DNA of 64,000 nucleotides from Bacteroidales bacterium (GTDB taxonomy: Bacteria; Bacteroidota; Bacteroidia; Bacteroidales; UBA12077): contig JBFXEQ010000010.1 in the NCBI GenBank assembly GCA_050179935.1, forward strand, positions 2,353 through 66,352. The letters are read 5' to 3'. Both the position numbers and the translations under genes were made by a program. Under the pieces are notes generated by a model. That model searched no databases. It was not told the origin of the DNA and saw nothing but the letters and a program-made list of their open reading frames with translations. Below are positions 9,489-30,057 of this stretch, one piece after another (position 1 is the first letter of the stretch; every line of letters begins with the position of its first letter).

Positions 9489-9971
9489 TTATTCTTCCTG
9501 CTGGTATAAATGAATACCAAAAGGATTTTTAATGTGTTCGCGTAGAAGTCTTGCTTCTGTTTCTGTTGATTCAAGCTCTGCTTTTATTATATCGCCAATG
9601 GAAACAATGCCAACAAGCTTTTCGGGTTCTTCGATTATAGGTATATGCCGAATACGTTTTGCAGTCATTACATTCATTAGGTATTGAGAGTCATCATCAG
9701 CTTTTCCAATAATAATTTGATCCTTGGATGTCATCAGGTTTTTTATCTTTTGCTCTTTTAAAGGCACTCCGGAGTTGTAACATTTGTAAAGGATGTCTCT
9801 CTCTGAAACAATTCCGATTAACTCATTTTTTTCATTTACAACAAGCAATGAGCCAATTTTAAACTTATCTAATCGCGCTATGGTATCATACGCAGTTGCA
9901 TCCTGTTGAATGGTGATTACATTTTCAGTTCCGATTTTTTCTTTTTTGTTTAGTATCTCTTTTGCCTTCAT
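9489..9971 (-). CDS. Stand-alone CBS-pair domain protein
   Basis: IGSLLVV...GIVSERD and RIRHIPII...GIVSIGDII tandem CBS motifs. Confidence 0.92.
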   Translation of the reverse strand: MKAKEILNKKEKIGTENVITIQQDATAYDTIARLDKFKIGSLLVVNEKNELIGIVSERDILYKCYNSGVPLKEQKIKNLMTSKDQIIIGKADDDSQYLMNVMTAKRIRHIPIIEEPEKLVGIVSIGDIIKAELESTETEARLLREHIKNPFGIHLYQQEE

Positions 9972-10057
9972 AGTTTACCTAGTTTAATTATAAAAACATG
10001 AGGTAAATGTAATGAATAAAAACTCCAAAGTCAATATATGTAGATATATAAATAATA

Positions 10058-10069
10058 TGATATATATCA
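10058..10069. promoter_or_regulatory. Putative Crp/Fnr-type binding site upstream of the CBS gene
   Basis: TGAT-ATAT-ATCA, matching the TGAT-N4-ATCA core. Confidence 0.5.
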
Positions 10070-10251
10070 GTTTGGAAGGAATTGGTTTCTCAACGCTTTT
10101 TATAGTTCCCTAGAGTATCTTTTATTTATTACGAGAGGTTACCCAAATTTTTGGGTAAAATGTAGATATGACAAACCAAACAATTAGAAATTGTGAAGAG
10201 CCCTGAAAGAGTGTTCAGAAAGATATTGGAAGGAGCAATCTTTAAAAGAAT

Positions 10252-10426
10252 GGGCTGAAGCCCGATCAAACTTGATTCTATTACCCCGACCTTAAGGTCG
10301 GGGTAATAATTAATACGTGACAATGGACTTTAGTCCAATCTATTATTTCCTTTTAGCAACCGCTCATATAATTTCAAAGATTAGTAGTACAATTAATCAA
10401 AGCGGGCCTCATTCGCCCTAAAGGGC
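10252..10426. repeat. Cluster of GC-rich REP-like palindromes
   Basis: GGGCTGAAGCCC (10252-63), perfect 30-bp palindrome TATTACCCCGACCTTAAGGTCGGGGTAATA (10279-10308), TGGACTTTAGTCCA (10324-37), GCCCTAAAGGGC (10415-26). Confidence 0.7.
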
Positions 10427-10448
10427 TCTTTTGTAGCGTTTTATTTCC

Positions 10449-11429
10449 TTAACTATTGCTGGAAAAATATTTCATAAACTGAGCGCGTTCATAGTTTGCT
10501 GCATTTCCAATTTTCCAGTAGCTTAGTTTACCTTTAAAATCATTCAAGGTTTTGTAATTTTTTTGTTGCATCCAGACTTCAATATTTTTATTCATCTCAG
10601 CAACCATAGAAACATCGTTTTTGTACAAAACGCTTGCAATTTGAACAACATCGGCACCTGCAAGCAGATTTTTAATTACTGCTTCAGAATCATGTATTCC
10701 GCCACTGGCTGATAAGCTTTTACTTATTATGGGGCGCAAAATGCCCAACCATCGCTGAATAAAATAATTGTCGGATGGTTCACTGAACGACCCTGCTGAT
10801 TTTACTTTCTCTTCGTTAATATCAATATCGGGATTAAAGAATCTGTTGAATAGTACAAGCGAATCAACTTTGTCTGCAAACTTTTTAGCAATATGTGCCA
10901 TATCGGTAAAGTAGTGGTGCATCTTTAGTGCAATCGGCAATTTGGTTTGATTTCTTACATTATCAAGAATCGAAAAATAAACCTGTTCTATGTCGGCTGC
11001 TGATTTGGCACTATCCGATGGCAAAATAAAAATATTCAGTTCAATGGCATCGGCACCAGCTTTTTCAAGAACGTTTACATATTCTGTCCAGCCTTCACTT
11101 GTTGAGCAATGGATTGATGCAATAATTGGAATGTCAACCTGCTTTTTAGCTTCCTTTATAAGTTGAATATGCTTGTCAAGCTCATGCTTTTTAGTATAAT
11201 ATGAGATATAATTCTCGGTATCGGTGTAGGTATTAAACATGTTGTTTACCTGCAAAGAATCAATCTCCATGCGTATTTGCTCTTCGAAAATCGATTTCAG
11301 AACAATAGCACCACAACCTGCATTTGCCAGTTTTACAATCTGGTCGATATTCGATGTAAAATCGCTGCTCGAAGCAATAATGGGACTTTTCAGGGTTAAT
11401 CCCATGTATTTTGTTGAAATATCTGCCAT
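10449..11429 (-). CDS. Dihydroorotate dehydrogenase-like FMN protein (DHOD-like subfamily)
   Basis: YMGLTLKSPIIASS, VLKSIFEEQI, ELNIF, LFNRF, SGGIH...AGADVVQIAS. Lacks the ELNxSCPN catalytic Cys. Confidence 0.85.
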   Translation of the reverse strand: MADISTKYMGLTLKSPIIASSSDFTSNIDQIVKLANAGCGAIVLKSIFEEQIRMEIDSLQVNNMFNTYTDTENYISYYTKKHELDKHIQLIKEAKKQVDIPIIASIHCSTSEGWTEYVNVLEKAGADAIELNIFILPSDSAKSAADIEQVYFSILDNVRNQTKLPIALKMHHYFTDMAHIAKKFADKVDSLVLFNRFFNPDIDINEEKVKSAGSFSEPSDNYFIQRWLGILRPIISKSLSASGGIHDSEAVIKNLLAGADVVQIASVLYKNDVSMVAEMNKNIEVWMQQKNYKTLNDFKGKLSYWKIGNAANYERAQFMKYFSSNS

Positions 11430-11441
11430 GTTAGTTATTTT

Positions 11442-13241
11442 TTATTGTACTGAATTTAAATACTGATCAATTCCTTTCGCTGCTTTATGTCCATTTGCAA
11501 CACCATGAATCACATCCGGACCTTCGATAATATCGCCGCCCAAAAATAACCAAGGAATGCTCGATTGGTAAGTTAATGTATCTACCAATATTCTTCCACG
11601 ATGATCTTTTTCCAGTTGTTCTGCATACTGTGGTGTAATATATTTCAGGTTCATTCCTTGCCCAATAGATTCAACAATCATATCGGCTTCGAAGAAATTT
11701 TCCTGTTTTTCATCGAATGTAGGATTAAAACGACCCGACTGATCAAAAACAGAAAGGCATTTTACCACTTTCAATCCGGTAATTTTGCCATCTTTAAGAA
11801 TCACTTCACGTGGTCCCCACCCAGGATGAATAATAGCATTCTCTTCACGTGCTTCAACAATCTCTTCTCTATCAGCAGGCATAATATCTTCGGTTTCCAA
11901 TGATGTTGCAATAACCTGTACTTTTCCGTATTTCTGTTTTTGCATACGAGCCAGTGAGCGGGTAATATCCATTGCAACATTACCACCACCAATAACAACA
12001 ATCTTTTCAGCAACTTCGATTGGTTCATTATCGGTAATTTTTCGCAACAATTCAATAGCCTGATAAACACTCTTATGCTCGGTTCCCGGGACACGTGTAC
12101 TGCGTCCTTCGTGTAAACCTGTTGCTGCATATATTGCATTATACTCCGATTGAAGTTTTTCAAGTGTAATATCTTTTCCTACTTCGGTATTGTATTTAAT
12201 ATCAACACCAAGTGACAAAATGTAATTGATATCTTTATCCAACTGATCGTATGGCAGCCTGTATTCAGGAATTCCATAACGCATCATACCACCGGCAGCA
12301 GAAAGTTTCTCAAATATGGTAACCTGATATCCCATAAGCGATAAATAGTAAGCTGCACTTAAACCTGCTGGTCCGGCACCAATAATGGCAACTTTTCTTC
12401 CGTTCTTTTCGATTCCATCTTGCAGTAACACTTTGTGGTATTCTGATTCCGGAATCTGATCGGCTATATATCGTTTTAGCCAGCGAATAGAAATAGGTTC
12501 TCCACGATGTCCAAGCGAACAAACAGTTTCGCATTTATGAGTACATATACGTCCGCAAATCTCAGGTAATGGATTGGTTTCGTACATAATACGAAGTCCT
12601 TCTTCCAGGTTATCCTGACGAATAGTTTTAATATATTCAGGTATTCCCATGTGAGCAGGGCAGGTAGCAATACAAATTCCGCATGATACACAACGATCGG
12701 CTTCGGCCATGGCTTCTTCCCTTGAGTATCCTTTCATAATTTCTATAAACGAATTATCTCTCTGTTCAGGATGAAGATGCTGCATATCAATTCTTTCCAA
12801 AGGATATAATTCTAACCCTTCAGCTTTCTTGTATCCTTTTTCTGCGTTGTCCCAGGGTTTGATATCAACACCGGGAATAAAACGGAATACATCAGGATCT
12901 GTATCAACCCAGGTGTAAACATTCGATAATTTGAGCGATCCGGTTGTGCATACATCAACACATAAAGCACACCAGCAACAACGGCCATAATCAACCCGAG
13001 GTCTTAGTCCGCTGTCGCCATCTTTGGTTTTTATATTTTCAACCGGAACTAAATCGATGGCTTCGTTTTCGCAAATCGCTTCGCATGAACCGCATCCGAT
13101 GCATTTCTCAATATCATTTTGGTGAAATCCTCTATATCGATCAGCTCCGGGACGGTTTAGCGGATCTTTTATAGTTACAGGTTCCTTAAAAAAGTGTTTC
13201 CAAACGGTAAACGGACTCAATATATCTCTCAGTGTTCCCAT
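11442..13241 (-). CDS. NuoI/MbxN-like 2x[4Fe-4S] domain fused to a GltD/NfnB/PreT-like FAD-NAD(P) oxidoreductase
   Basis: RYRGFH...CIGCGSCEAIC and CCWCALCVDVC, then CVSCGICIATCP, CGRICTHKCETVC, GAGPAGL, GGMMRYGIPEYRLP, GGGNVAMD. Confidence 0.9.
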   Translation of the reverse strand: MGTLRDILSPFTVWKHFFKEPVTIKDPLNRPGADRYRGFHQNDIEKCIGCGSCEAICENEAIDLVPVENIKTKDGDSGLRPRVDYGRCCWCALCVDVCTTGSLKLSNVYTWVDTDPDVFRFIPGVDIKPWDNAEKGYKKAEGLELYPLERIDMQHLHPEQRDNSFIEIMKGYSREEAMAEADRCVSCGICIATCPAHMGIPEYIKTIRQDNLEEGLRIMYETNPLPEICGRICTHKCETVCSLGHRGEPISIRWLKRYIADQIPESEYHKVLLQDGIEKNGRKVAIIGAGPAGLSAAYYLSLMGYQVTIFEKLSAAGGMMRYGIPEYRLPYDQLDKDINYILSLGVDIKYNTEVGKDITLEKLQSEYNAIYAATGLHEGRSTRVPGTEHKSVYQAIELLRKITDNEPIEVAEKIVVIGGGNVAMDITRSLARMQKQKYGKVQVIATSLETEDIMPADREEIVEAREENAIIHPGWGPREVILKDGKITGLKVVKCLSVFDQSGRFNPTFDEKQENFFEADMIVESIGQGMNLKYITPQYAEQLEKDHRGRILVDTLTYQSSIPWLFLGGDIIEGPDVIHGVANGHKAAKGIDQYLNSVQ

Positions 13242-13246
13242 ATAAA

Positions 13247-14440
13247 TTATCTTTCTATTTCAGGTGGATAAGTGTGTAGTGAAACCATAATTTGTGCTAC
13301 ATCAGAGATGTTTGCATTGATTAGCATTTTCTCGAGTAATGCTACAGCATGTGTATAACTCGGGCCTCGAACATTTACGCGTCGTGGATACCCTGAACCA
13401 TCTGATACCAGATAATATCCATATTCGCCACGTGTACATTCGCTACGTACATAAGTTTCGCCGGCAGGTATTTCTAAATTAAAAACATTGGGTATTGATG
13501 CCATAAACTCGCCTTTTTTAGGCATTTTATTGAGAATCTGACGAATCAAATCAACATCGGTCAGCAGTTCTTCGTAACGCAAATAAACTCGTGCATAAAT
13601 ATCGCTGTCGGTTGCCGTTTTAACATCAAAATCCAATTCGGCGTATTTTCCATAGGGATAATCTTTCCGAACATCTAATGGTACTCCAGCAGCTCGTGCA
13701 TTTGGACCAACAATTCCGTATTGGTAAACCCACGATGGATCAATTATTGCAATCCCTTTGGTTCGTTTTTTAAATACATAATTATCAAATAATACGCGAC
13801 GGATATCTTTCATAAATCCTTCAATCTCTTTTAGGTTTGCTTCCATGCGGTCAGCGAAACCATCTGGAAGATCATTACGAACGCCGCCCTGCAAAATATA
13901 AATATGATAAATACGAGCTCCTGTAAGTTCTTCGAAACGATCCAAAATTAAATCACGCAAGTAATTCGACCACTGACCAACAGTGCCAAAGCCTAAAGCT
14001 CCTGACATACCACCAATCCACATTAAATATCCCTGCAGACGAGCCATTTCTAAAACAAGTGTTCGTAACCACATTGCTTTTTCAGGTGCCTGAATTCCGG
14101 TAAGATTTTCAATAGCAGTAGCATAATTGAATTCGTTATAATCAGGCTCGGGAACAGCTATTCGGCACACCAAAGGGAAGTTCTGAATATATTTTCTTCG
14201 TTCCATCAATTTCTCAAAACCACGGTGCAGATATCCAACATGTGTTTTAGCTTCCACCACTTCGTCGGCACAAACAGTTAATTCAACCGACATGTTTCCG
14301 GTAATTCCGGGATGGTTTGGGCCATGCCAAAGCTTTATATACTTATGCGATGTTAAATCAATATCTAAACTGCCATCAGGTAGTGTTTGAGGGTACAAGT
14401 CACGGTCGCCGTCAAACGAGAATTTTCCTGTTTTATTCAT
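13247..14440 (-). CDS. mbxL: NuoD-like large subunit of an Mbx/MBS-type complex (no NiFe motifs)
   Basis: HGPNHPG, GYLHRGFEK, CRIAVPEPD, FEELTGARI, RGEYGYY, RGPS, C-terminal YPPEIER. Confidence 0.85.
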   Translation of the reverse strand: MNKTGKFSFDGDRDLYPQTLPDGSLDIDLTSHKYIKLWHGPNHPGITGNMSVELTVCADEVVEAKTHVGYLHRGFEKLMERRKYIQNFPLVCRIAVPEPDYNEFNYATAIENLTGIQAPEKAMWLRTLVLEMARLQGYLMWIGGMSGALGFGTVGQWSNYLRDLILDRFEELTGARIYHIYILQGGVRNDLPDGFADRMEANLKEIEGFMKDIRRVLFDNYVFKKRTKGIAIIDPSWVYQYGIVGPNARAAGVPLDVRKDYPYGKYAELDFDVKTATDSDIYARVYLRYEELLTDVDLIRQILNKMPKKGEFMASIPNVFNLEIPAGETYVRSECTRGEYGYYLVSDGSGYPRRVNVRGPSYTHAVALLEKMLINANISDVAQIMVSLHTYPPEIER

Positions 14441-14963
14441 TGGGATAAAGTTTATTTTTCATGTGTACAGCGGGATCGTTTGTTGTTCTCTCTCCGCGTT
14501 GGTGATAAAACGAATCGGAATATGCTTTTGTGTCGAAATCGCGACGGTAAGGAGGAATTCCTTCCCAGCCTTCCAGAATAAACGGTTCATCAACACGTGG
14601 ACTGCCCGGGAAATCTATTCCGAACATCTCTTTTAGCTCGCGCTGGTAGGTAGCAATGGTTGGCCACAGATGATGAGCCGAATCCATTGTCGCATTTTCG
14701 CGCGAAATAAGTGTTCTTACACCAATATCACATTTCAGTGTTGGATTGTTTAACAGATACGTTAATTGAAAATTGCCATCTTCAATATAATCAACCGCTG
14801 TAAGCAATACCAGATGTTTAAATCCGAGATTGTCATGCAGGCAATGAACCACATTTACTGCTTGTTTCTTGTCTACAGTAATAAACATCTGGTTATCCGA
14901 TTTAGGCGATTTCACGCTTATCGTAAACTGAACTTCTAATTTATCTAATATCTCTTGAAACAT
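14433..14963 (-). CDS. mbxK: NuoC-like subunit
   Basis: LTAVDY, YQRELKEMFGIDFPG, PPYRRDF. Confidence 0.85.
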   Translation of the reverse strand: MFQEILDKLEVQFTISVKSPKSDNQMFITVDKKQAVNVVHCLHDNLGFKHLVLLTAVDYIEDGNFQLTYLLNNPTLKCDIGVRTLISRENATMDSAHHLWPTIATYQRELKEMFGIDFPGSPRVDEPFILEGWEGIPPYRRDFDTKAYSDSFYHQRGERTTNDPAVHMKNKLYPNE

Positions 14964-14974
14964 AATTTACTATT

Positions 14975-15616
14975 TTACCAGTTATAATCGGGCATATTCC
15001 AATCGCGAATAACAGCTTTCTGATTTGCTTTGTACCAGTCGAACCGGTTTGCATAATCGTTTGCACCTTCAGCTTTTCCGGCTTTAATTACTTCTTTTAG
15101 TTTGTTAAATCCTGCAATCAGCGCTTCGGGTCGTGGCATACATCCTGCAATATAAACATCAACAGGAAGATAATAGTCTAATCGTTTTATGGTATTGTAA
15201 CTATCGAAATACATTCCACCATTAATTGTACAACTACCTAATCCGATAACATATTTGGGGTTTTGCATTTGTTCATAAACACGAATTACCCGTTTTAATG
15301 TTTTGGTTGATAAATATCCCGAAACGATAAGCAGATTTGCCTGACGTGGAGTTGGTCGCCATTGAATACCAAAGCGGTATGCATCAAAGCGAGGTGTCAT
15401 CAACGGACGCATCTCAATAGCCCCACAACCGGTTCCGAAACCAAGAATCCAGATGCTTTCTGAGCGAGCCCAGTTGTAAAACTTTTCCAGTATTCCTTTT
15501 ACGGGTTTTACATCTTCTGGCCTGTCCTGACAGAAATAATCCTGCATGGGATCAACTTCGAACTCTTCGCCATCAGGAGATATTACTGTTTTTTTCTTTA
15601 AATCTTCTAAACTCAT
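14975..15616 (-). CDS. mbxJ: NuoB-like Fe-S subunit
   Basis: GTGCGAIEM, TPRQANLL, YEQMQNPKYVIGLGSC, PVDVYIAGCMPRPEA. Confidence 0.9.
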   Translation of the reverse strand: MSLEDLKKKTVISPDGEEFEVDPMQDYFCQDRPEDVKPVKGILEKFYNWARSESIWILGFGTGCGAIEMRPLMTPRFDAYRFGIQWRPTPRQANLLIVSGYLSTKTLKRVIRVYEQMQNPKYVIGLGSCTINGGMYFDSYNTIKRLDYYLPVDVYIAGCMPRPEALIAGFNKLKEVIKAGKAEGANDYANRFDWYKANQKAVIRDWNMPDYNW

Positions 15617-15625
15617 ATCGTGTTA

Positions 15626-21346: not shown

Positions 21347-21348
21347 AA

Positions 21349-24336: not shown

Positions 24337-24362
24337 TTAACTTAAAAATAGGAGAAAAGATA

Positions 24363-24614
24363 ATGACAACAGAAGAATTAAAAGCATTAAAGATTGACAA
24401 ATCAGTTGATGCACGTGGAACAGCATGTCCGGGACCACTTTTAGCAGCAAAAAAAGCTATTGGCGAGATTAAATCAGGACAAGTTATGGAGGTATTATCA
24501 GCAGATGAAGGTACAAAAAATGATATTCCAAAATGGGCTGCTAAACAAGGACACGATTATCTTGGGACAATCGAAGAATCGGGATTCTTTAAAATTTACA
24601 TGAAGAAAAACTAA
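24363..24614 (+). CDS. tusA: Sulfurtransferase TusA family protein
   Basis: VDARGTACPGPLL (CPxP persulfide Cys), GQVMEVLSAD...DIPKW. Confidence 0.9.
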   Translation: MTTEELKALKIDKSVDARGTACPGPLLAAKKAIGEIKSGQVMEVLSADEGTKNDIPKWAAKQGHDYLGTIEESGFFKIYMKKN

Positions 24615-24619
24615 GAACC

Positions 24620-25021
24620 ATGGAAAACACAGATAATCCAAAGATTCTGGTTTTTTCAACGGAGAAGATTTCGGACCCCGCAATTGATATGGCGGGGCTC
24701 CTTAAAAAACATTACCCTGCAACAGTTTATACTGTGAATGTACCATGCTCAAGTGGTATAAAACCCAAATGGATTTTATATGCTTTTGAGAAAGGGTTTG
24801 CCGGAGTTTTTATTGCTGCTGATGGAACCGATTGCGCATACAGCGAAACATGTTCTGAAAAAACATCAGAAATAGTAAAACAAACTCACGAACTAATGAA
24901 AGCACGCAATATGGATCCTGCACGCCTTAAAATGGCTGCTATATGTTCTGTTTGCGCCGAGTCTTTTGTTAAACACGTGTCAACTTTCCATGCTTATCTT
25001 TCAGGTAAACAGGAAAATTAA
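24620..25021 (+). CDS. MvhD/FlpD-like iron-sulfur subunit (atypical Cys pattern)
   Basis: PKILVF...AIDMAG...YP...VPCS...ILYAFEKGFAGVFI...DCAY...DPARL, the MvhD layout. Confidence 0.8.
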   Translation: MENTDNPKILVFSTEKISDPAIDMAGLLKKHYPATVYTVNVPCSSGIKPKWILYAFEKGFAGVFIAADGTDCAYSETCSEKTSEIVKQTHELMKARNMDPARLKMAAICSVCAESFVKHVSTFHAYLSGKQEN

Positions 25022-25038: not shown

Positions 25039-26328
25039 ATGATAAAATCAGAAGAATATGATGTGCTTGTAATTGGTGGAGGAATAGCAGGAGCTGAAGC
25101 ATCAATAAATCTGGCAAATCAGGGATATAAAATACTGATTGTCGAAAAGGATTTATCAGTTGGAGGGAAAATGATTCATTTAAGTAAAGTTTTTCCTACA
25201 CTTGATTGCTCAGCTTGTATAACTACTCCTAAAATTTCACAAACTGCCCGTCACCCGAATATTACCATTTATACGAATAGCCAGGTAAATGATATTGAAA
25301 AGAAATCTGAGCATAATTTTCAGGCAATTGTTACAAAATATCCAAGGTATGTTAAAGAAGAAGATTGCACCGGATGTCAGATATGCGAGGAGAAATGCCC
25401 GGTAGTTGTTAACGACCAGTATCAATATGATTTAGTTGGACGTAAAGCAGTTTATGTACCATTTAGTATTGCCAACCCACGAGTTGCAGCTATAGATATT
25501 GAAAACTGTAGCTTGTGTGGTGCCTGCGAGAAAGCTTGCCCATCAGAAGCTATTGATTTTAGTCAGGAAAAAATAGAAATTCAAATAAATGTTAAATCGG
25601 TTGTTATTGCCACAGGATTTAGACTTTTTGATCCACTATTGATTCCCCGATATGGATTTGGGAAATATAAAAATGTTATAACAGCAATGCAGATGGAACG
25701 ACAATTAGTTCCAACAAGACCATTTAATCATGTTTTAAGACCCAAAGATGGTAAAATGCCCGATAAAATAGCCTATGTTTTATGTGCTGGCTCACGTGAC
25801 GAAACAGTGGGTAATCCAATTTGTTCTCAGGTATGCTGCATGTATTCAGTAAAACAAGCTCAATTACTCATGGGAGCATTACCATTAGCAGATATAACTA
25901 TTTATTATTTACACATTCGATCATTTGGTAAAGGATTTAACGAATTTTATCAGCAAGCTAAAGATATGGGGGTAAATTTTGTAAAAGGGAAAGTTGGTAA
26001 AATATCTGAAATCGACAATGGGAACTTGCTTTTACGATACGAAGATATCCAAGAAGGTGTTGTAAAAGAAGCCAAACATGATTTAGTCGTTTTATCGGTA
26101 GGTATTCTTGCAAATCAAGGAATCTCAACCATGTTCAAAGACAACCTTGAACTTGACCCGTTTAACTATATAAAACAATCTGATGAATTAGCAAATCCTG
26201 CAAAAACAACCATAAGGGGTGTCTATGTTGCAGGAACAGCATCTGGCCCAATGGATATACCTGATTCCATTTTATCAGCAGGAGCTGCTTCAGCAGAAAT
26301 TGCAGGTTATTTAAGACTAAGAAGATAA
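25039..26328 (+). CDS. hdrA: HdrA-like FAD/Fe-S protein (short; QmoA-sized)
   Basis: GGGIAG, KVFPTLDCSAC, inserted 2x[4Fe-4S], CAGSRD...CSQVCCMY, GPMDIPDS. Confidence 0.88.
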   Translation: MIKSEEYDVLVIGGGIAGAEASINLANQGYKILIVEKDLSVGGKMIHLSKVFPTLDCSACITTPKISQTARHPNITIYTNSQVNDIEKKSEHNFQAIVTKYPRYVKEEDCTGCQICEEKCPVVVNDQYQYDLVGRKAVYVPFSIANPRVAAIDIENCSLCGACEKACPSEAIDFSQEKIEIQINVKSVVIATGFRLFDPLLIPRYGFGKYKNVITAMQMERQLVPTRPFNHVLRPKDGKMPDKIAYVLCAGSRDETVGNPICSQVCCMYSVKQAQLLMGALPLADITIYYLHIRSFGKGFNEFYQQAKDMGVNFVKGKVGKISEIDNGNLLLRYEDIQEGVVKEAKHDLVVLSVGILANQGISTMFKDNLELDPFNYIKQSDELANPAKTTIRGVYVAGTASGPMDIPDSILSAGAASAEIAGYLRLRR

Positions 26329-26330
26329 TT

Positions 26331-28265
26331 ATGAAAAATAAAATTGGAGTATATATTTGTCAATGTGGTTCAAACATTTCAGATTATGTAGATGTTGAAA
26401 AAGTAAAAGAAGCTGCATTAAAAGTAAATGGCGTTCATTTGGCTAAAACAACCATGTTTGCATGTGCCGATTCAACCCAACAAGAAATCGCAAACGACAT
26501 TAAAGAACAAAAGCTCGATGCTATTGTTGTAGCATCATGCTCTCCCAAATTACATTTGTTTACTTTTCGAAATGTAGCTATACAGGGGGGATTAAATCCC
26601 TACAATTATGTTCAGGTAAATATTCGTGAACAGTGTTCGTGGGCACACTCCAACAATAAACCTAAAGCAACCGAAAAAGCAATTCAGTTGGTTTTAGGTG
26701 GTATAGCAAGAGTAAAACATTCGAAAGAACTCGAAATGGTAAAAATACACTCAGAGAATGCCGTAGCTGTAGTTGGAGCTGGTGTGGCAGGAATGAGAGC
26801 TGCACTCGAACTAGCCGAAATGGGTTCAATAGTTCATTTAATAGAACGTGAATATTTTGTAGGAGGAAGAACTTCGCAGTGGAATATTTTATATACTACA
26901 AATGAAACAGGTCAGCAGGTTATATCAAGATTATATAATCAGATTATTGTTCATCCAAAAATTACTTTATATACAGCTACCAATATTATTTCGAAAAAAG
27001 GAAGCGTAGGTGATTTTACCTTAACACTAAAAACAAAACCAAGATACATAAAACCAGAATGTAAGCTTGATCTTAAAAAATTTCAGATTGCAATTGATAA
27101 ATGTCCAATCGAAGTAAATGATGAGTTCAATTTTGGCATAACAAAACGAAAAGCCATATTTAAAAACTTCGATAGCGAATTTCCCGAAATACCTGCTATT
27201 GATTACGATGCGTGTAATAAATGTGGCGAATGTGCAAAGCTTTGCGATGATATTGATCTTAATCAGCAACCACACGAAACAACAATAAATGTGGGAGCGG
27301 TATTATTAAGTACCGGATTTAATCCTTATGAACCATATGTTGGAGAATTCGGTTATGGCGAAGTAGATAATGTTATTACTTTACAGCAATTTAAGCGATT
27401 AATTGAGCTTAGCCCCGAAAAATTAATTTTTAAAGGGAAAGAAATTAAAAATATTGCTTATATCTATTGTGTAGGTAGTAGACAGGTTGATGGTGATAAT
27501 AAGTATTGTTCGCGCTATTGCTGTACATCGGTTATACACACAGCAATACTGGTAAAAAACAAATATAAGGGAATCCAGAATTTCCATTTCAATCGTGGGA
27601 TAAGAACTTATGGGAAACAGGAAAAATTGTACCATGAAGCATCTGAACAGGGAGATATATTCCTTCAATCATTTGAAGATGCACCAACACAGGTTGAGAA
27701 AGTTGGAAGCGAAACCATTGTTAAAATAAAAGATATATTAACTGCAAACGAAGAACTCGAAATGAGTGCCGACTTGGTAGTTCTAGTAACCGGTATGGTT
27801 CCTCGTGAAAATGCAGATATTGTTAACCTTCTTAAAGTTCCAATTAGTCGCGATAAATTCTTTAACGAAATACATCCTAAGTTACGCCCGGTAGAAACAG
27901 TTATTGATGGAGTATTGATTTCAGGAGCTTGTCAGGCACCACTCAATATAACCGAATCTGTAAAATCAGCTTTGGCAGCAGCATCAAAAGCGAACTCATT
28001 AATTAGCAAAGGCGAAATAGAACTTGAGCCAACCATGGCAATGGTTTATAACGATAAATGTACCTGGTGTGGCAAATGCTCAGAAGCTTGTCCGTATGAT
28101 GCAATATCTATAAAAGAGTATAATGGCAAACAAATAGCCCAAATAACTGAAGCTTTATGCAAAGGTTGCGGAATGTGTTTGCCGGTTTGCCCTGAAAATG
28201 CTCTTGATCTTATCGGTTATACCGACAAAGAAATGGAATGTATGATTGAAGCTTTAATAAGCTAA
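26331..28265 (+). CDS. hdrA: HdrA-like FAD/Fe-S protein (full-length; QmoB-like but without fused MvhD)
   Basis: IGVYICQCG...ASCSP...NIREQCSW, GAGVAG, CVGSR...CSRYCC, C-terminal CTWCGKCSEACP and CKGCGMCLPVCP. Confidence 0.9.
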   Translation: MKNKIGVYICQCGSNISDYVDVEKVKEAALKVNGVHLAKTTMFACADSTQQEIANDIKEQKLDAIVVASCSPKLHLFTFRNVAIQGGLNPYNYVQVNIREQCSWAHSNNKPKATEKAIQLVLGGIARVKHSKELEMVKIHSENAVAVVGAGVAGMRAALELAEMGSIVHLIEREYFVGGRTSQWNILYTTNETGQQVISRLYNQIIVHPKITLYTATNIISKKGSVGDFTLTLKTKPRYIKPECKLDLKKFQIAIDKCPIEVNDEFNFGITKRKAIFKNFDSEFPEIPAIDYDACNKCGECAKLCDDIDLNQQPHETTINVGAVLLSTGFNPYEPYVGEFGYGEVDNVITLQQFKRLIELSPEKLIFKGKEIKNIAYIYCVGSRQVDGDNKYCSRYCCTSVIHTAILVKNKYKGIQNFHFNRGIRTYGKQEKLYHEASEQGDIFLQSFEDAPTQVEKVGSETIVKIKDILTANEELEMSADLVVLVTGMVPRENADIVNLLKVPISRDKFFNEIHPKLRPVETVIDGVLISGACQAPLNITESVKSALAAASKANSLISKGEIELEPTMAMVYNDKCTWCGKCSEACPYDAISIKEYNGKQIAQITEALCKGCGMCLPVCPENALDLIGYTDKEMECMIEALIS

Positions 28266-28276
28266 AAACAAATATT

Positions 28277-28543
28277 ATGGGAAAAACAATTGATATAATT
28301 AAGCAAAAAAGAAAAGTTTCCGAATCGGTAAAGCAGAATATTAAAGACTTTAATGCGATGAAAAAGAAAATTCTAGCTGCGATGGAAATTGAGCATAAAT
28401 CTATCCCTCAAATAGCTGAAGAACTTCAACTTCCGTTAGATGTAATAACTTTTCATTTAATGACACTGCAGAAATTTGGATTTATTGAAGTAAGCAAATT
28501 AGATGATAAGGATGAATACTATTTTTATAAACTGAAAAAGTAA
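28277..28543 (+). CDS. Small winged-helix (ArsR-like) protein
   Basis: KKKILAAM...KSIPQIAEELQLP...VITFHLMTLQKFGFIE. Confidence 0.75.
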   Translation: MGKTIDIIKQKRKVSESVKQNIKDFNAMKKKILAAMEIEHKSIPQIAEELQLPLDVITFHLMTLQKFGFIEVSKLDDKDEYYFYKLKK

Positions 28544-28548
28544 GAACC

Positions 28549-29598
28549 ATGGCAAAGATAAATCCTGATTTTGCAAAAGAAATTTTTAAATATGGGAATA
28601 CTGATTTCCAAGCATGTTATAATTGTGGTAATTGCACAGCTGTATGTAGTTTATCTGATGAAAATAATTCTTTTCCCCGAAAAATGGTAAGAGCAAGTGT
28701 TTTAGGATTAGAAAAAAACATTCAGAGTTCATTAGATCCCTGGCTATGTTATTATTGCGGTGAATGTTCAACAACCTGTCCCCGTGGAGCTAATCCTGGA
28801 GAGCTAATGATGAGCTTACGTCGATGGTTAACTGCTAAATACGATTGGACAGGACTTTCGGGTTTGTTGTATAGATATCTGCCTGTTACAATTTTTGCAT
28901 TTATTATAACTGCTCTAGCGGTGCTATTTTTTGCTGCTGCTAAAAACTTCGATGTCGGAACCATTATGCATTTTGGTCATCAGTTCGAAATGTGGGCAAT
29001 CATTGGTGTTTTTACAATTATTTTAATTCCGAACCTTGCCCGCATGTGGTGGTTTGTAATACTTAAACCAAAAATTAAGGTTACGTTTATGACCTATGTA
29101 AAAACTATGGGTGAGTTATTTATCCATATGTTTACTCAGAAAAGAACACTCGGCTGTGACGACAGCCAGTCACGATGGTTTATTCATCTGGTTATTGTTT
29201 TTGGGTATTTACTTCTCTTGTTTACAACGGTTGTTCTCGATTGGTTCGGAACAAGGAATATGTTTATTATCATTCTTGGTTATGTCGAAAGCATTGTTCT
29301 TTTTACACTAACATTTATTTTTGTTAGAGGTAGAATTATTAAGAACCAGGAACAAAATAAATTTTCGCAACCATCCGATTGGTTATTTGTGATATGGCTG
29401 TTCTTAATGGCTTTTACAGCATTTGCAGTTCGAATATTTATCGATTTGAATTTGATCGAAACCAACTTATGGTTATACCTTTTTCATTTAATTATACTGG
29501 TTCAGTGGGCAGTGCTTATTGTTCCTTTTGGTAAATGGACACATTTCTTGTACCGTTCATTCGCAATGTATTTTGATAAATTAAAACAGCCTGCATAA
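28549..29598 (+). CDS. QmoC-like protein: HdrC-type 2x[4Fe-4S] domain plus a cytochrome-b/NarI-like membrane domain
   Basis: CYNCGNCTAVC, PWLCYYCGECSTTCPRG, then several TM helices with His (FIHM, WFIHL, LFHL, PFGKWTH). Confidence 0.8.
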   Translation: MAKINPDFAKEIFKYGNTDFQACYNCGNCTAVCSLSDENNSFPRKMVRASVLGLEKNIQSSLDPWLCYYCGECSTTCPRGANPGELMMSLRRWLTAKYDWTGLSGLLYRYLPVTIFAFIITALAVLFFAAAKNFDVGTIMHFGHQFEMWAIIGVFTIILIPNLARMWWFVILKPKIKVTFMTYVKTMGELFIHMFTQKRTLGCDDSQSRWFIHLVIVFGYLLLLFTTVVLDWFGTRNMFIIILGYVESIVLFTLTFIFVRGRIIKNQEQNKFSQPSDWLFVIWLFLMAFTAFAVRIFIDLNLIETNLWLYLFHLIILVQWAVLIVPFGKWTHFLYRSFAMYFDKLKQPA

Positions 29599-29622
29599 TA
29601 TAGATAAGTTGTTTTAAAATTC

Positions 29623-29651
29623 AAAAGGAGGTTGTTTTAACCTCCTTTTTT
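29623..29651. terminator. Bidirectional Rho-independent terminator ending the Hdr/Qmo-like operon
   Basis: AAAAGGAGGTT-GTTTT-AACCTCCTTTTTT. Confidence 0.85.
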
Positions 29652-29661
29652 CTTTACCACC

Positions 29662-30057
29662 CTAATCTCCCTTAAAATTGATTTTGTACGGACCTTTATT
29701 TTTGTGGTCTAAAGGAATATCCGGAATCCATTCAAATGGAAAAATGTCTGATTCTTCAAGTCCGGTTTTTTCGTAAAAATCAGGTTCTCCCAGTTTATAC
29801 CATACGCCATCAATTTTTATATATATACTATCACTTATTAATAATGGCTCTTCTGTTTTTTGCAACCTGAAACTTGCATTAAGCTCCTGTCCGTTTGCCA
29901 ATAAAATTTTCCCCCCACATTCATATTTTCTTCCATCAATTGGTATTCGCTTAAAACTTTCCTTTTTTGAAGCACAAGGACCAATCCAAACGAAAACATC
30001 TTCTTTTTCGGCAATCTGAATTGAATACTTCTTAATATCCTCGATTTTTAGGGGCAT
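29662..30057 (-). CDS. Hypothetical protein
   Basis: 131-aa ORF with ATG start, bounded by a terminator; no recognised motif. Confidence 0.7.
   Translation of the reverse strand: MPLKIEDIKKYSIQIAEKEDVFVWIGPCASKKESFKRIPIDGRKYECGGKILLANGQELNASFRLQKTEEPLLISDSIYIKIDGVWYKLGEPDFYEKTGLEESDIFPFEWIPDIPLDHKNKGPYKINFKGD

What the first reader, a model, noticed from the sequence alone, without database searches (positions are those of the whole stretch)
9489..30057. Candidate sulfur-linked energy-conservation island: Mbx/MBS-like complex back-to-back with a DsrE-TusA-Hdr/Qmo-like module
Seen: two large redox operons point away from a central TetR + Crp/Fnr regulator pair, with Fnr-type boxes at both flanks and the centre. 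Established: the Mrp-Mbx gene order here (A-B-C-D-E/F-G-H-H'-M-J-K-L-N) is that of the membrane-bound sulfane sulfur reductase family of Thermococcales, which also has Thermotogales homologs. DsrE/TusA are persulfide carriers, and HdrA/MvhD/QmoC are electron-bifurcation or quinone-linked modules. Inference: this Bacteroidota may couple NAD(P)H/ferredoxin and quinone pools to reduction or handling of protein-bound or poly-sulfane sulfur, with ion pumping. I know of no characterised Bacteroidota system with this combination.
Basis: partly seen in the sequence, partly recalled or inferred. Interest (0 to 1): 0.88.

Follow-up and report, generated by a model that had tools for sequence, protein, structure and literature searches.

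The report
Two unlinked redox operons, neighbours here
Two real and interesting membrane redox gene clusters sit back to back in this Bacteroidales genome, but related genomes show they are inherited separately, so this is a chance neighbourhood of two modules, not one sulfur-energy island.

Summary
The genes are there, with corrections. The minus strand (22731-9489) carries TetR, a 12-gene Mrp-Mbx complex, a PyrD-like flavoprotein and a CBS protein. Its last Mbx subunit is a NuoI::NfnB/GltD-like fusion, the Thermotoga maritima PRK13984 type. The plus strand (23842-29598) carries DsrE-like, TusA, MvhD, two HdrA-like proteins (QmoA/QmoB-like), an 88-aa protein and a QmoC-like di-haem protein, under a divergent Crp-family regulator.

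The "island" is not a conserved unit. In the GTDB family the Mbx fusion occurs in 32 of 56 genomes and QmoC-like in 16 of 56. Both occur in 9, against 9.1 expected, and lie within 20 kb in only 2 of those 9. In a complete genome they are 1.1 Mb apart. A 90%-identical relative lacks the whole 14.9-kb Mbx block at this site. None of the 80 Mbx loci from other species has any Qmo/TusA/DsrE gene nearby.

The Mbx catalytic subunits are closest to the Pyrococcus sulfane reductase MBS and keep its three-cysteine proximal cluster (80 of 80 loci). The Qmo-like cassette is conserved across families. In relatives it is fused to YeeE-rhodanese-porin genes, so its sulfur link is the better supported one. 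The genome has no AprA, no sirohaem sulfite reductase and no MenD.

The parts
22150..22731 (-). TetR-family regulator, 38 bp upstream of the first Mbx gene and co-oriented with it. A 6-4-6 palindrome (GTAAGT-AATC-ACTTAC) lies at 22736-22751, just upstream of its start codon.
   Evidence: PF00440 32.9 bits; sequence read. A TetR homolog (50% identity) stands upstream of MrpE in 2 of 80 foreign Mbx loci, L036 and L038.
19684..22111 (-). Mrp-type ion-translocating module: MrpE/MbxA 21611-22111, MrpF/MbxB 21349-21618, MrpG/MbxC 20990-21346, MbhD/MbxD 20746-21003, MbhE+MnhB/MbxE 20061-20759, NuoK/MrpC/MbxG 19684-20058.
   Evidence: Pfam PF01899, PF04066, PF03334, PF13244, PF04039+PF20501 and PF00420, all over their cut-offs.
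16538..19690 (-). Fused MbxH-MbxH' antiporter-like subunit, 1050 aa.
   Evidence: PF00361 in two stretches. The N-terminal half hits 6u8y_H (137 bits) and the C-terminal half hits 6u8y_X, MbsH' (182 bits).
13247..16534 (-). Membrane-anchored catalytic module: NuoH/MbxM 15626-16534, NuoB/MbxJ 14975-15616, NuoC/MbxK 14433-14963, NuoD/MbxL 13247-14440.
   Evidence: MbxJ hits 6u8y_J at 214 bits (next best 137). MbxL hits 6u8y_L at 330 bits (next best 209). MbxJ has three Cys only (C64, C129, C159), and this holds in 80 of 80 loci.
11442..13241 (-). MbxN-equivalent: a NuoI-like 2x[4Fe-4S] domain fused to an NfnB/GltD-like Fer4_20 + FAD/NAD(P)H domain, 599 aa.
   Evidence: NF010590, 896.8 bits, residues 5-597 against model positions 9-608 of 611. 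PDB best hits for residues ~150-596 include T. maritima NfnB 4ylf_B (272 bits) and P. furiosus NfnI 5jca_L (266 bits); the GltD hit is 190 bits and the DPD hit 145 bits. Present at >=90% coverage in 60 of 80 Mbx loci.
10449..11429 (-). PyrD/PreA-like FMN-type flavoprotein without its own Fe-S domain, 326 aa.
   Evidence: NF005741, 378 bits, cut-off 303. Only weak hits to class-1 DHODH structures (36 bits). Present next to the fusion in 21 of 80 loci, all of the Bacteroidota type. Missing in G024.
9489..9971 (-). CBS-pair protein, separated from the PyrD-like gene by a 478-bp gap that holds a TGAT-N4-ATCA site (10058-10069).
   Evidence: PF00571 73.9 bits. Conserved downstream of the Mbx operon in G008, G018 and G024 and in 9 of 80 loci.
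22986..23681 (-). Crp/Fnr-family regulator, divergent from the Qmo-like cassette. Its box TGATCTAAATCA is at 23741-23752.
   Evidence: PF13545 and PF00027. Orthologs at 70-97% identity lie beside the sulfur/Qmo genes in G001, G008, G015, G018 and G024. In G016 the ortholog lies upstream of the Mbx operon, about 21 kb from the Qmo cassette. The box position is conserved in 6 of 7 related loci. No conserved FNR-type Cys cluster.
23842..25021 (+). Sulfur-carrier and electron-input genes: DsrE-like 23842-24336 (the true start is probably Met29, near 23926), TusA 24363-24614, MvhD 24620-25021.
   Evidence: PF13686 38.6 bits, PF01206 79.2 bits, PF02662 95.6 bits. Cys123 of the DsrE-like protein is invariant, and homologs start near Met29.
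25039..28265 (+). Two HdrA-like flavoproteins: QmoA-like, 429 aa (25039-26328), and QmoB-like, a full-length HdrA of 644 aa (26331-28265).
   Evidence: NF040770 HdrA2, 462.6 and 570.3 bits, both below the cut-off. QmoB-like hits HdrA 5odc_A at 462 bits over residues 4-630.
28277..29649 (+). An 88-aa protein with faint HTH-like matches (28277-28543), a QmoC-like protein of 349 aa (28549-29598), and a terminator-like hairpin (29623-29649).
   Evidence: qmoC NF038018, 151.6 bits, cut-off 300, aligned 7-342 against 4-360 of 360. 8 invariant Cys and 4 invariant His in 18 homologs. Hairpin with a 12-bp stem and a T run. The 88-aa gene is conserved between QmoB and QmoC in all cassettes examined.

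Best explanation
The region holds two separate modules that became neighbours only in this lineage.

Module 1 (22731-9489, minus strand) is a bacterial, Thermotoga-type member of the MBS/Mbx branch of complex-I-like enzymes. It has a complete Mrp-type ion-translocating arm and an MBS-like catalytic pocket: a proximal [4Fe-4S] cluster with only three Cys ligands, no quinone-binding His/Tyr and no NiFe ligands. Its ferredoxin-docking subunit MbxN is covalently extended by an NfnB/GltD-like FAD/NAD(P)H module.

Inferred mechanism for Module 1: electrons from NAD(P)H, and/or from ferredoxin at the NuoI-like domain, run through four [4Fe-4S] clusters to the open-coordination proximal cluster. There a non-quinone acceptor, most likely sulfane sulfur as in MBS, is reduced, coupled to H+/Na+ export. 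The process could be reversible. In Bacteroidota-type loci a PyrD-like flavoprotein and a CBS protein are accessory.

Module 2 (22986-29649) is a cassette controlled by a Crp-family regulator: DsrE-like, TusA, MvhD, QmoA-like, HdrA/QmoB-like, an 88-aa protein and a QmoC-like protein. Inferred role: it is a membrane-anchored Hdr/Qmo-type electron-transfer complex that, instead of serving APS reductase, exchanges electrons with sulfane sulfur carried on TusA/DsrE. That sulfur is derived from thiosulfate or polysulfide in relatives that also carry YeeE, rhodaneses and a porin.

Shown here: gene content, family relationships, the catalytic-site pattern, the conserved regulator box, and the independent distribution of the two modules. 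Inferred: substrates, direction of electron flow and ion coupling.
For: Independence of the two modules.
- Family-wide, the fusion occurs in 32 of 56 genomes and QmoC-like in 16 of 56. Both occur in 9, against 9.1 expected if independent.
- Among those 9, the two lie within 20 kb only in G000 and G016. In G016 the arrangement differs: convergent, about 9 kb apart, with DUF3857 and FtsX genes between.
- In the one-contig genome G008 they lie at 2.87 and 3.99 Mb.
- G009 is colinear with the window, except that window 9369-24303 (14.9 kb) is replaced by 1.36 kb.
- G001 shares the window's junction at 90.6% nucleotide identity.
- None of the 80 Mbx loci from other species has a DsrE, TusA, MvhD or Qmo hit within the flanks. 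45 of these loci extend at least 3 kb upstream of MrpE.
- The window's Mbx proteins are closer to loci outside the genus than to genus mates. The fusion is 79-87% identical in L035-L039 and G040, against about 70-73% in genus mates.

Module 1.
- Pfam and NCBIfam assignments.
- MBS chains are the best PDB hits.
- MbsJ C28, C93 and C123 are kept, and MbsJ C25 is replaced by Gly, without gaps in the alignment. This holds in 6 of 6 relatives and 80 of 80 loci.
- Nqo4 H38 aligns with Thr and Y87 with Val.
- The flavoprotein part is closest to NfnB-type structures.
- T. maritima rings over the cut-off for NF010590.
- T. maritima mbxA rose 4.4-fold with S0 (PMC9431562, passages read).

Module 2.
- The cassette and a divergent Crp-family gene recur in three families of the order: f1, f19 (G271) and f2 (G025).
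- It is preceded by TusA, YeeE, two rhodaneses, a porin and two more rhodaneses in G008 and G624. In G015, G018 and G024 a second TusA lies next to the Crp ortholog, with a gap of about 5 kb in the same position; the genes in those gaps were not annotated.
- The box site is conserved.
- Cys and His residues of QmoC-like are invariant.
- QmoB-like is a full-length HdrA.
Against: - No biochemical or expression data exist for either module in any Bacteroidota.
- NAD(P)H to sulfane sulfur spans only about 50 mV by textbook potentials (recalled). That is little to drive ion pumping, so ferredoxin input or reverse operation may be needed.
- The published alternative for the fused type is ferredoxin:NAD(P)+ oxidoreductase (PMC4758237; 10.1101/322537).
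- The vestigial MbsL cysteines C85 and C385 are not kept (Ala, Tyr).
- NF010590 and qmoC scores are below their curated cut-offs.
- The cassette has no HdrB/CCG subunit, which is the only known catalytic site for S-S chemistry in Hdr enzymes. How TusA/DsrE sulfur would be reduced is therefore unexplained.
- This genome lacks the YeeE and rhodanese genes that give the cassette its sulfur context in relatives.
- MenD was not found, so a quinone partner for QmoC-like is not established.
- Two independent juxtapositions (G000/G001 and G016) among 9-10 carriers of both modules are more than a random-placement model would predict. A loose functional or regulatory affinity is therefore not excluded.
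Confidence: 0.6

Rival explanations
1. One reading: the two operons form one functional, co-regulated island. [quoted passage not shown]
For: - The two operons are adjacent in G000 and G001, and adjacent in a different arrangement in G016.
- Both modules are rare in even samples: the full-length fusion occurs in 3 of 301 phylum genomes and QmoC-like in 3 of 301 class genomes. Both are common in this family.
- Both have a plausible sulfur link.
- In variant cassettes (G006, G619, G624) QmoA is fused to an NfnB-like module like the one on Mbx. This shows that the cassette can use an NAD(P)H module.
Against: - Co-occurrence equals the expectation under independence: 9 observed, 9.1 expected.
- Both modules lie within 20 kb in 2 of the 9 genomes that have both.
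- They are 1.1 Mb apart in the complete genome G008.
- The Mbx block is absent from the same site in G009.
- 0 of 80 Mbx loci elsewhere carry any cassette gene.
- The cassette recurs without Mbx in G015 (100% complete), G025 and G271.
- The conserved Crp box is found only at the cassette. The Mbx block has a TetR here and a different Crp paralog (42-45% identity) in relatives.
Confidence: 0.12
2. Module 1 does no sulfur chemistry. It is an ion-translocating ferredoxin:NAD(P)+ oxidoreductase, functionally like Rnf, or in reverse a gradient-driven producer of reduced ferredoxin/NADPH. The NfnB-like domain would be the NAD(P)+ site.
For: - This is the published interpretation of the gltD-fused mbx-like operons of Thermotoga and proteobacteria (PMC4758237, passages read) and of Mesotoga Mbx (10.1101/322537, passages read).
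- The family is abundant in autotrophic sulfur-oxidising Gamma- and Alphaproteobacteria.
- In Endoriftia a putative Mrp-Mbx is co-expressed with the rTCA cycle, which needs reduced ferredoxin (PMC11636981, passages read).
- The flavoprotein part resembles bifurcating NfnB.
Against: - If electrons passed only between the NuoI-like clusters and the NfnB-like FAD, they would bypass the NuoB/NuoD/NuoH coupling site. Yet that site is the most conserved part: MbxJ is 73-90% identical across phyla.
- The site keeps the unusual three-Cys cluster in 80 of 80 loci, which argues for chemistry there.
- The genome already has Rnf (RnfC 574 bits).
- T. maritima mbxA responds to S0 (PMC9431562).
Confidence: 0.3
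3. Module 2 is not a dissimilatory sulfur enzyme. It would be either a general NAD(P)H/ferredoxin/quinone electron-bifurcating Hdr-Qmo-type complex whose TusA/DsrE neighbours serve sulfur or selenium trafficking for biosynthesis, or a detoxification system for reactive sulfane sulfur.
For: - There is no catalytic HdrB, no AprAB and no sulfite reductase in the genome.
- YeeE and the rhodaneses are absent from this genome's cassette.
- Variant cassettes carry an NfnB-like NAD(P)H module.
- YedE/YedF(TusA)-type genes, HdrA and MvhD are also discussed in selenium-utilisation reviews. This rests only on the search listing; those papers were not read.
Against: - DsrE-like and TusA are the first genes of the cassette in every version seen, across three families.
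- The cassette is fused into one gene string with a thiosulfate-type importer, four rhodaneses and a porin in G008 and G624. That is more than biosynthetic trafficking usually needs.
Confidence: 0.2

Closest known systems
[quoted passage not shown]
   Same: The gene order A-N is the same, with a full Mrp module including both H and H'. MbxJ and MbxL have MBS chains as their best structural relatives (214 and 330 bits). The proximal cluster has the same three Cys and the same loop length. The quinone-binding His/Tyr and the NiFe ligands are absent.
   Different: - MbsN is a free 2x[4Fe-4S] ferredoxin-docking subunit. Here it is fused to an NfnB/GltD-like NAD(P)H flavoprotein.
- H and H' are fused into one protein.
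[quoted passage not shown]
- Extra PyrD-like and CBS genes are present.
- The host is a mesophilic-type bacterium, and no activity data exist.
Thermotoga maritima Mbx (13-subunit MBX; the PRK13984/NF010590 fusion protein)
   Same: The NuoI::GltD-like fusion matches NF010590 end to end, and T. maritima is the only one of the 14 control genomes that rings. The published descriptions of the operon type also match (PMC4758237; PMC9431562).
   Different: The window's score (896.8) is below the equivalog cut-off (946). The T. maritima locus itself was not fetched, so PyrD-like and CBS content there is unknown to me. The function of the Thermotoga enzyme is itself unproven: it is described as Fd:NAD(P)+ oxidoreductase in one paper and as a sulfur reductase in another.
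QmoABC of sulfate reducers and sulfur oxidisers (PMC3333476 seen in a search listing only; role as described in passages of PMC13490349)
   Same: There are two HdrA-like flavoproteins plus a membrane subunit that combines an HdrC-like 2x[4Fe-4S] domain with a multi-His transmembrane domain. An MvhD module is also present.
   Different: - No aprBA is present next to the cassette or anywhere in the genome.
- QmoC scores 152 bits against a cut-off of 300.
- MvhD is a separate gene instead of the QmoB C-terminus.
- The operon starts with DsrE-like and TusA, contains an extra 88-aa protein, and is controlled by a Crp-family regulator.
sHdr (sulfur-oxidising heterodisulfide-reductase-like) systems with TusA/DsrE/rhodanese cascades (PMC11094781, abstract in a listing only), and YTD clusters (yedE-tusA-dsrE; PMC13490349, passages read)
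   Same: An Hdr-type flavoprotein is combined with TusA, DsrE-family proteins and, in relatives, with rhodaneses and a YeeE/YedE importer.
   Different: There is no HdrB or HdrC1/C2 set, and no lipoate-binding protein was seen in the cassette. The cassette has a QmoC-type membrane anchor instead. The host is an anaerobic fermenter-type Bacteroidales without Dsr or Apr.

Membership tests
MBS/Mbx (Mrp-Mbx) complex-I-like family | 13 subunits in the order A-N, with a complete Mrp-type module (MrpE, F, G, MbhD, MbhE/MnhB, MrpC, and two antiporter-like H and H') followed by NuoH, NuoB, NuoC, NuoD and NuoI homologs | tested here: met
   H and H' are fused into one protein of 1050 aa.
MBS/Mbx (Mrp-Mbx) complex-I-like family | Proximal [4Fe-4S] in the J subunit held by three Cys only, on a loop of MBS length (PMC7684303) | tested here: met
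   C64, C129 and C159 align with MbsJ C28, C93 and C123 without gaps. MbsJ C25 aligns with Gly. The pattern holds in 6 of 6 relatives and 80 of 80 loci.
MBS/Mbx (Mrp-Mbx) complex-I-like family | L subunit without the quinone ligands (Nqo4 H38, Y87) and without the four NiFe cysteines | tested here: met
   H38 aligns with Thr47 and Y87 with Val96. No Cys stands at the aligned NiFe positions.
MBS/Mbx (Mrp-Mbx) complex-I-like family | Two vestigial Cys of MbsL (C85, C385) retained | tested here: not met
   They align with Ala95 and Tyr391. PMC7684303 reports these residues as not needed for catalysis.
MBS/Mbx (Mrp-Mbx) complex-I-like family | Free MbsN-type two-cluster subunit as the ferredoxin entry | tested here: not met
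   The NuoI-like domain is the N-terminus of a 599-aa fusion with an NfnB/GltD-like flavoprotein.
MBS/Mbx (Mrp-Mbx) complex-I-like family | Ferredoxin-dependent polysulfide reduction coupled to ion translocation | not testable with these tools
   This needs enzyme assays.
Thermotoga-type Mbx fusion subunit (NCBIfam NF010590 / PRK13984) | Score over the curated cut-off, with an end-to-end match | tested here: inconclusive
   896.8 bits against a cut-off of 946, matching residues 5-597 to model positions 9-608 of 611. T. maritima is over the cut-off.
QmoABC | QmoC equivalog score | tested here: not met
   NF038018, 151.6 bits against a cut-off of 300, although aligned over the full length.
QmoABC | HdrC-like two-cluster domain plus a membrane domain with conserved His residues for haem b | tested here: met
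   8 invariant Cys and 4 invariant His (H144, H213, H313, H332) in 18 homologs. That these His bind haem is inferred.
QmoABC | Genomic and functional link to APS reductase AprBA | tested here: not met
   No AprA over the cut-off in the genome; the best hit is 28 bits. None is present in any cassette locus examined.
Heterodisulfide reductase (HdrABC / sHdr) | HdrB with CCG domains as the catalytic subunit, encoded with HdrA and HdrC | tested here: not met
   No CCG domain is present in the operon. CCG proteins occur only on C21 and C12. The C21 one lies beside an acyl-CoA dehydrogenase; the C12 context was not examined.
YTD / YeeE-TusA-DsrE sulfur-import clusters | A yedE/yeeE-type transporter gene adjacent to tusA and a dsrE-like gene | tested here: not met
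   Absent from the window. The only PF04143 genes in the genome are split halves on C11, next to thioredoxin and ArsP genes. The feature is met in relatives G008 and G624.
FNR-type oxygen sensor | N-terminal Cys cluster for [4Fe-4S] (motif recalled, not from a call) and a TTGAT-N4-ATCAA box | tested here: not met
   The N-terminal Cys residues are not conserved among orthologs. Only the core TGAT-N4-ATCA is present. The Crp-family domain architecture itself is met.

The most novel reading that the evidence does not exclude
The Crp-controlled cassette (DsrE-like, TusA, MvhD, QmoA-like, HdrA, an 88-aa protein, QmoC-like) would be a so far undescribed type of membrane-bound sulfane-sulfur (thiosulfate/polysulfide-derived) reductase. 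It would use Hdr/Qmo electron-bifurcation machinery without AprAB and without HdrB. It is widespread in anaerobic Bacteroidales. Separately, the NfnB-fused, three-Cys Mbx would be a complex-I-like NAD(P)H:sulfane-sulfur oxidoreductase. In sulfur-storing Gammaproteobacteria it would run on stored sulfur, possibly in reverse.
Probability: 0.3. Interest if true: 0.75.

Novelty: new variant of a known kind. Interest (0 to 1): 0.5.

Why it matters
If the functional readings hold, fermentative Bacteroidales of anoxic habitats would have two unrecognised routes for disposing of electrons on zero-valent sulfur while conserving energy. Standard sulfur-cycle marker genes (dsr, apr, psr, phs) detect neither route.

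The Mbx type with a fused NAD(P)H module is very widespread: at least 568 related loci were found, and MbxJ is 73-90% identical between Bacteroidota and sulfur-oxidising Proteobacteria. It is nonetheless biochemically uncharacterised, and its substrate is disputed in the literature. The invariant three-Cys cluster gives a concrete, testable argument.

The practical lesson is negative but useful: gene adjacency in one MAG does not make an island. The two modules should be studied and annotated separately.

Tried and rejected
- Canonical FNR boxes: not enriched.
- Rfam over 9000-31000: no family at gathering score.
- Sigma-70 promoter scan: 71 sites against 83.8 expected. Terminator scan: 14 against 13.9. 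Neither is informative, except the strong hairpin after QmoC.
- RNA evidence: the look-up of sequencing runs listed no RNA holder. Read laying was therefore not used, and nothing can be said on expression.
- Quinone biosynthesis: MenD was not found. Two UbiA-family genes exist, one MqnP-like but below the MqnP cut-offs. The question is left open.
- Polysulfide/thiosulfate reductase: the C20 DmsA/DmsB-like pair scores far below every named cut-off, so no assignment was made.
- The second NuoD-like gene (C53) is part of a Hyf-like group-4 hydrogenase-type cluster, not a Nuo complex.
- sat and sqr were not searched.
- Literature: nine searches. Two of them paired Mbx with a Bacteroidota-group name, and neither returned a paper on an Mbx complex in Bacteroidota. 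None of the nine returned a paper describing a DsrE-TusA-MvhD-Qmo cassette without AprAB. 'Mrp-Mbx' occurs in one held paper. This covers only the held library. Schut et al. 2013/2016, which I recall as the source of the Mbx classification, were not seen.
- Supplements of PMC9431562, PMC11636981 and 10.1101/322537 were not opened. They may list the exact gene content of those Mbx loci.
- Complex prediction, asking whether the PyrD-like protein docks on the fusion, gave no verdict because it was not folded. The PyrD-like protein as a subunit therefore rests on synteny only.

Full report
WHAT IS THERE

The window is G000:C10:2353-66352 of a 3.62-Mb, 127-contig Bacteroidales MAG that is 98% complete. 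The nearest named relatives of its proteins are Bacteroidales, Tenuifilaceae and Prolixibacteraceae MAGs. ORF listing and Pfam/NCBIfam scans give the following map.

Minus strand:
- TetR (22150-22731)
- MrpE/MbxA, MrpF/B, MrpG/C, MbhD/D, MbhE+MnhB/E and NuoK/G (22111 down to 19684)
- one 1050-aa protein (16538-19690)
- NuoH/M, NuoB/J, NuoC/K and NuoD/L (16534 down to 13247)
- a 599-aa NuoI-like::Fer4_20+FAD/NAD(P) fusion (11442-13241)
- a PyrD/PreA-like protein (10449-11429)
- after a 478-bp gap, a CBS-pair protein (9489-9971)

In the 1050-aa protein the N-terminal half matches MbsH and the C-terminal half matches MbsH' of PDB 6U8Y.

The Crp/Fnr-family gene (22986-23681) is also on the minus strand.

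Plus strand:
- DsrE-like (23842-24336; homologs start at its Met29)
- TusA
- MvhD
- a 429-aa HdrA-like protein (QmoA-like)
- a 644-aa full-length HdrA (QmoB-like; 462 bits to 5ODC_A)
- an 88-aa protein
- a QmoC-like protein (28549-29598)
- a strong hairpin with a T run (29623-29649)

Three things were missed. The 'N' subunit is a fusion with an NAD(P)H flavoprotein. A PyrD-like and a CBS gene follow it. MvhD is a gene of its own.

THE FNR BOXES

The full FNR consensus is not enriched: 8 hits with up to 1 mismatch against 8.36 expected. The core TGAT-N4-ATCA occurs 5 times against 2.08 expected. One site, at 23741-23752, lies between the Crp gene and the DsrE-like gene.

A site of this kind stands beside the cassette's Crp-family gene in G001, G008, G009, G015, G016 and G024 (in G009 that gene is the 38% paralog). 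There is no exact core in G018. The central box is therefore real and belongs to the Crp/cassette pair.

A second site lies upstream of the CBS gene. None lies upstream of TetR or the Mbx genes. There, the conspicuous element is a 6-4-6 palindrome at 22736-22751 abutting the TetR start. The Crp orthologs do not conserve an FNR-like N-terminal cysteine cluster (the FNR motif itself is recalled).

ARE THE TWO OPERONS LINKED? NO.

(i) Distribution in the family. In all 56 genomes of the GTDB family, the fusion subunit is found in 32 and the QmoC-like protein in 16. Both are found in 9, and independence predicts 9.1.

(ii) Distance in genomes that have both. Of those 9, the genes lie within 20 kb only in G000 and G016. 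In the single-contig genome G008 they lie at 2.87 Mb and 3.99 Mb. In G005, G018, G024, G601, G602 and G625 they are on different contigs. For G018 and G024 the fetched flanks of 8-14 kb show no trace of the other module.

(iii) The window's closest relatives. G001, the nearest relative, shares the window's junction: it is colinear with 21363-28853 at 90.6% nucleotide identity. Its contig starts inside MrpF. The junction is therefore not an assembly artefact. G009, whose cassette proteins are about 90% identical, is colinear with the window on both sides. However, it has 1.36 kb (a different Crp paralog and a different DsrE-like paralog) where the window has 14.9 kb (9369-24303, running from CBS to the DsrE-like gene). 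No fusion gene was found in G009, which is 91% complete.

(iv) The second juxtaposition. In G016 the two modules are neighbours in another arrangement. They are convergent and about 9 kb apart. DUF3857 and transglutaminase-like genes lie between them, and an FtsX/MacB-type gene separates the PyrD-like gene from the fusion.

(v) Mbx loci in other species. Of the best 80 loci, none has a tblastn hit to DsrE-like, TusA, MvhD, QmoA, QmoB, the 88-aa protein or QmoC within the fetched flanks. 45 of the 80 extend at least 3 kb upstream of MrpE.

(vi) Cassette without Mbx. The cassette with a divergent Crp-family gene recurs in two other families of the order (G271, G025) without the full-length fusion in those genomes.

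(vii) Origin of the Mbx block. The window's Mbx proteins are closer to loci outside its genus than to genus mates. The fusion is 79-87% identical in L035-L039 and G040, against about 70-73% in genus mates. TetR accompanies Mbx only in L036 and L038 among the 80 loci. The Mbx block is also slightly richer in G+C: 0.39-0.40 over window 12-16 kb, against 0.28-0.35 in the neighbouring regions. I infer that a TetR-Mbx-PyrD-CBS block was inserted next to the cassette in the G000/G001 lineage.

Two independent juxtapositions among 9-10 carriers of both are still more than random placement predicts, so I keep a small probability for a loose affinity.

MODULE 1

Among solved structures, MbxJ and MbxL are closest by far to the Pyrococcus furiosus sulfane reductase MBS. 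MbxJ hits 6u8y_J at 214 bits (next best 137). MbxL hits 6u8y_L at 330 bits (next best 209).

The printed alignments show the following:
- The three cluster ligands of MbsJ (C28, C93, C123) are kept as C64, C129 and C159, without gaps.
- The non-ligand MbsJ C25 is Gly here.
- Nqo4 H38 and Y87, the quinone head-group ligands, align with Thr47 and Val96.
- The two vestigial NiFe cysteines of MbsL (C85, C385) align with Ala95 and Tyr391.

According to PMC7684303 (passages read), the three-Cys proximal cluster is the proposed catalytic centre, and C25, C85 and C385 are dispensable. The three-Cys pattern is invariant in 6 of 6 genus relatives and in 80 of 80 loci from Bacteroidota, Neomarinimicrobiota and many Gamma- and Alphaproteobacteria.

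The fusion subunit matches NCBIfam NF010590 (PRK13984) from end to end at 896.8 bits, against a cut-off of 946. Of the 14 control genomes only Thermotoga maritima rings, and it is over the cut-off. This is therefore the Thermotoga-type Mbx. Its "NuoI substituted by a gltD-related flavoprotein" was noted by Degli Esposti (PMC4758237), who read it as the NAD(P)+ reduction site. Its flavoprotein part is most like bifurcating NfnB subunits (4YLF_B 272 bits, 5JCA_L 266 bits; GltD 190 bits; DPD 145 bits).

The fusion follows MbxL in 60 of 80 loci at full length. Ten more loci have partial hits, mostly cut by contig ends.

The PyrD-like gene is present in 21 of 80 loci, all of the Bacteroidota type. 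It is missing in G024. The CBS gene is present in 9 of 80. Both are accessory.

In an even sample of the phylum, the full-length fusion is rare: 3 of 301 genomes.

How it most likely works (inference). The architecture copies complex I. A flavin NAD(P)H site feeds a wire of four [4Fe-4S] clusters, two NfnB-type and two NuoI-type. The wire ends at the NuoB cluster, above the NuoD/NuoH pocket that drives the antiporter-like subunits. The pocket lacks quinone and NiFe ligands and keeps an iron with an open coordination site. The acceptor is therefore most likely sulfane sulfur, as in MBS. Ferredoxin may still enter at the NuoI-like domain.

Support from outside this window is thin but consistent. 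T. maritima mbxA rises 4.4-fold with S0 (PMC9431562). The rival view, a ferredoxin:NAD(P)+ oxidoreductase, is in print (PMC4758237; Mesotoga preprint 10.1101/322537). It is favoured by the enzyme's abundance in autotrophic sulfur oxidisers and by co-expression with the rTCA cycle in Endoriftia (PMC11636981). I rate it at 0.3, because it leaves the most conserved and most unusual site of the enzyme without a role. The small NAD(P)H/sulfur potential gap (recalled values) argues that ferredoxin input or reversibility matters.

MODULE 2

The cassette order is DsrE-like, TusA, MvhD, QmoA-like, HdrA/QmoB-like, 88-aa protein, QmoC-like. The same order, with a divergent Crp-family gene, is found in the window, G001, G009 and G602. 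It is also found in G271 (family f19) and G025 (family f2).

In G008 the same string is preceded by a second TusA, a YeeE/YedE-type transporter, two rhodanese proteins, a porin, two more rhodaneses and a DsrE paralog. G624 shows the same YeeE-to-rhodanese genes, with the start cut by the fetched range. In G015, G018 and G024 a second TusA lies beside the Crp ortholog, followed by a gap of about 5 kb before the DsrE-like gene. The genes in those gaps were not annotated.

In G006, G619 and G624, QmoA-like is replaced by a protein of about 915 aa. In it an NfnB/GltD-like module is fused to the C-terminal two-thirds of QmoA.

QmoC-like keeps eight Cys (two clusters) and four His in its membrane part in 18 of 18 homologs. 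It scores 152 bits against a cut-off of 300 for qmoC. The DsrE-like protein has one invariant Cys. TusA has its Cys-Pro-x-Pro motif (read).

The genome has the following inventory:
- no AprA
- no NIR_SIR-type sulfite reductase
- no CCG/HdrB protein near the cassette
- one rhodanese, on C99
- only split YeeE halves in another context
- no MenD

The module is thus Qmo-like in build, but it cannot be a QmoABC-AprAB system. Its constant partners are sulfur carriers.

I infer that it moves electrons between the membrane (or NAD(P)H in the variant) and TusA/DsrE-bound sulfane sulfur, probably reductively in these fermenters. The missing HdrB-type site and the unknown quinone status are real gaps. 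The rival roles (general bifurcating complex, biosynthetic or selenium trafficking, detoxification) together get 0.2.

REST OF THE GENOME

Rnf is present (RnfC 574 bits). Multi-subunit 2-oxoacid:ferredoxin oxidoreductase genes lie on C47 (weak hits to the nifJ model). There are three molybdoenzymes, none assignable to Psr or Phs. A Hyf-like complex lies on C53. A DsrC-like gene lies next to DUF1641 and a pyridine-nucleotide-disulfide oxidoreductase on C6.

VERDICT

The interpretation as one island is not supported. Module 1 is a new member of a known but uncharacterised kind. Module 2, as far as my nine literature searches reach, is an undescribed variant of Qmo/Hdr systems. Interest is moderate: the island claim falls, but both modules are testable candidates for unrecognised sulfur-linked energy metabolism.

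No RNA run was listed.

Noticed in passing
L122 (G006:C11), L123 (G619:C145), L124 (G624:C10): A variant of the cassette in which QmoA-like is replaced by a protein of about 915 aa. It fuses an NfnB/GltD-like NAD(P)H module to the C-terminal two-thirds of QmoA. DsrE-like, TusA, MvhD, QmoB, the 88-aa gene and QmoC are retained (QmoC up to 84% identical).
   Followed up: partly
L024 (G001:C159) 7190-8326 versus window 28549-29598: In the closest relative the whole operon is 93-97% identical at the protein level, except QmoC-like, which is only 48-52% identical. The nucleotide colinearity stops at window 28853. This looks like a recombinational replacement of the membrane part.
   Followed up: no
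window 29662-30057 (minus strand): A 131-aa ORF with no Pfam family is conserved (61-82% identity) near the end of the Qmo-like cassette in G001, G008, G015, G018, G024 and G624. It is absent at that site in G009.
   Followed up: no
window 9971-10449: A 478-bp non-coding gap lies between the PyrD-like and CBS genes. It holds a perfect 12-bp-stem hairpin (10280-10307) and further short GC-rich palindromes. There is no Rfam match.
   Followed up: partly
G000:C6 about 69.1-71.3 kb (L034 4173-6317): A gene trio: a pyridine-nucleotide-disulfide oxidoreductase (409 aa), a DUF1641 protein and a DsrC/TusE-like protein (100 aa). It is a second possible sulfur-carrier redox unit in the genome.
   Followed up: no
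G000:C53 (L032 7500-12330): The only other NuoD-like gene belongs to a Hyf/Ech-like group-4 hydrogenase-type cluster (HyfF-like, HyfE-like, NuoB-like). No second NuoD homolog that would mark a canonical Nuo complex was seen.
   Followed up: partly
G000:C37:21406-22686: A molybdopterin oxidoreductase frame of 908 aa has one in-frame TGA next to a NuoF/RnfC-like gene. It may be a selenocysteine formate dehydrogenase.
   Followed up: no
loci L044, L053-L055, L059, L064-L076 and others: MbxJ is 73-80% identical between Bacteroidales and sulfur-oxidising Gamma- and Alphaproteobacteria (Thiothrix, Thiohalocapsa, Lamprobacter, Thiodiazotropha, Sedimenticola). This is unusually high across phyla and suggests lateral spread of the whole operon. 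The proteobacterial loci lack the PyrD-like gene.
   Followed up: partly
L021, L028 and L030 (G016, G015, G024): Two DsrE-like paralog types occur. One is the window type. The other is 25-31% identical to it. They stand in tandem in some cassettes and singly in others. The regulator paralog and the DsrE paralog appear to swap independently.
   Followed up: no
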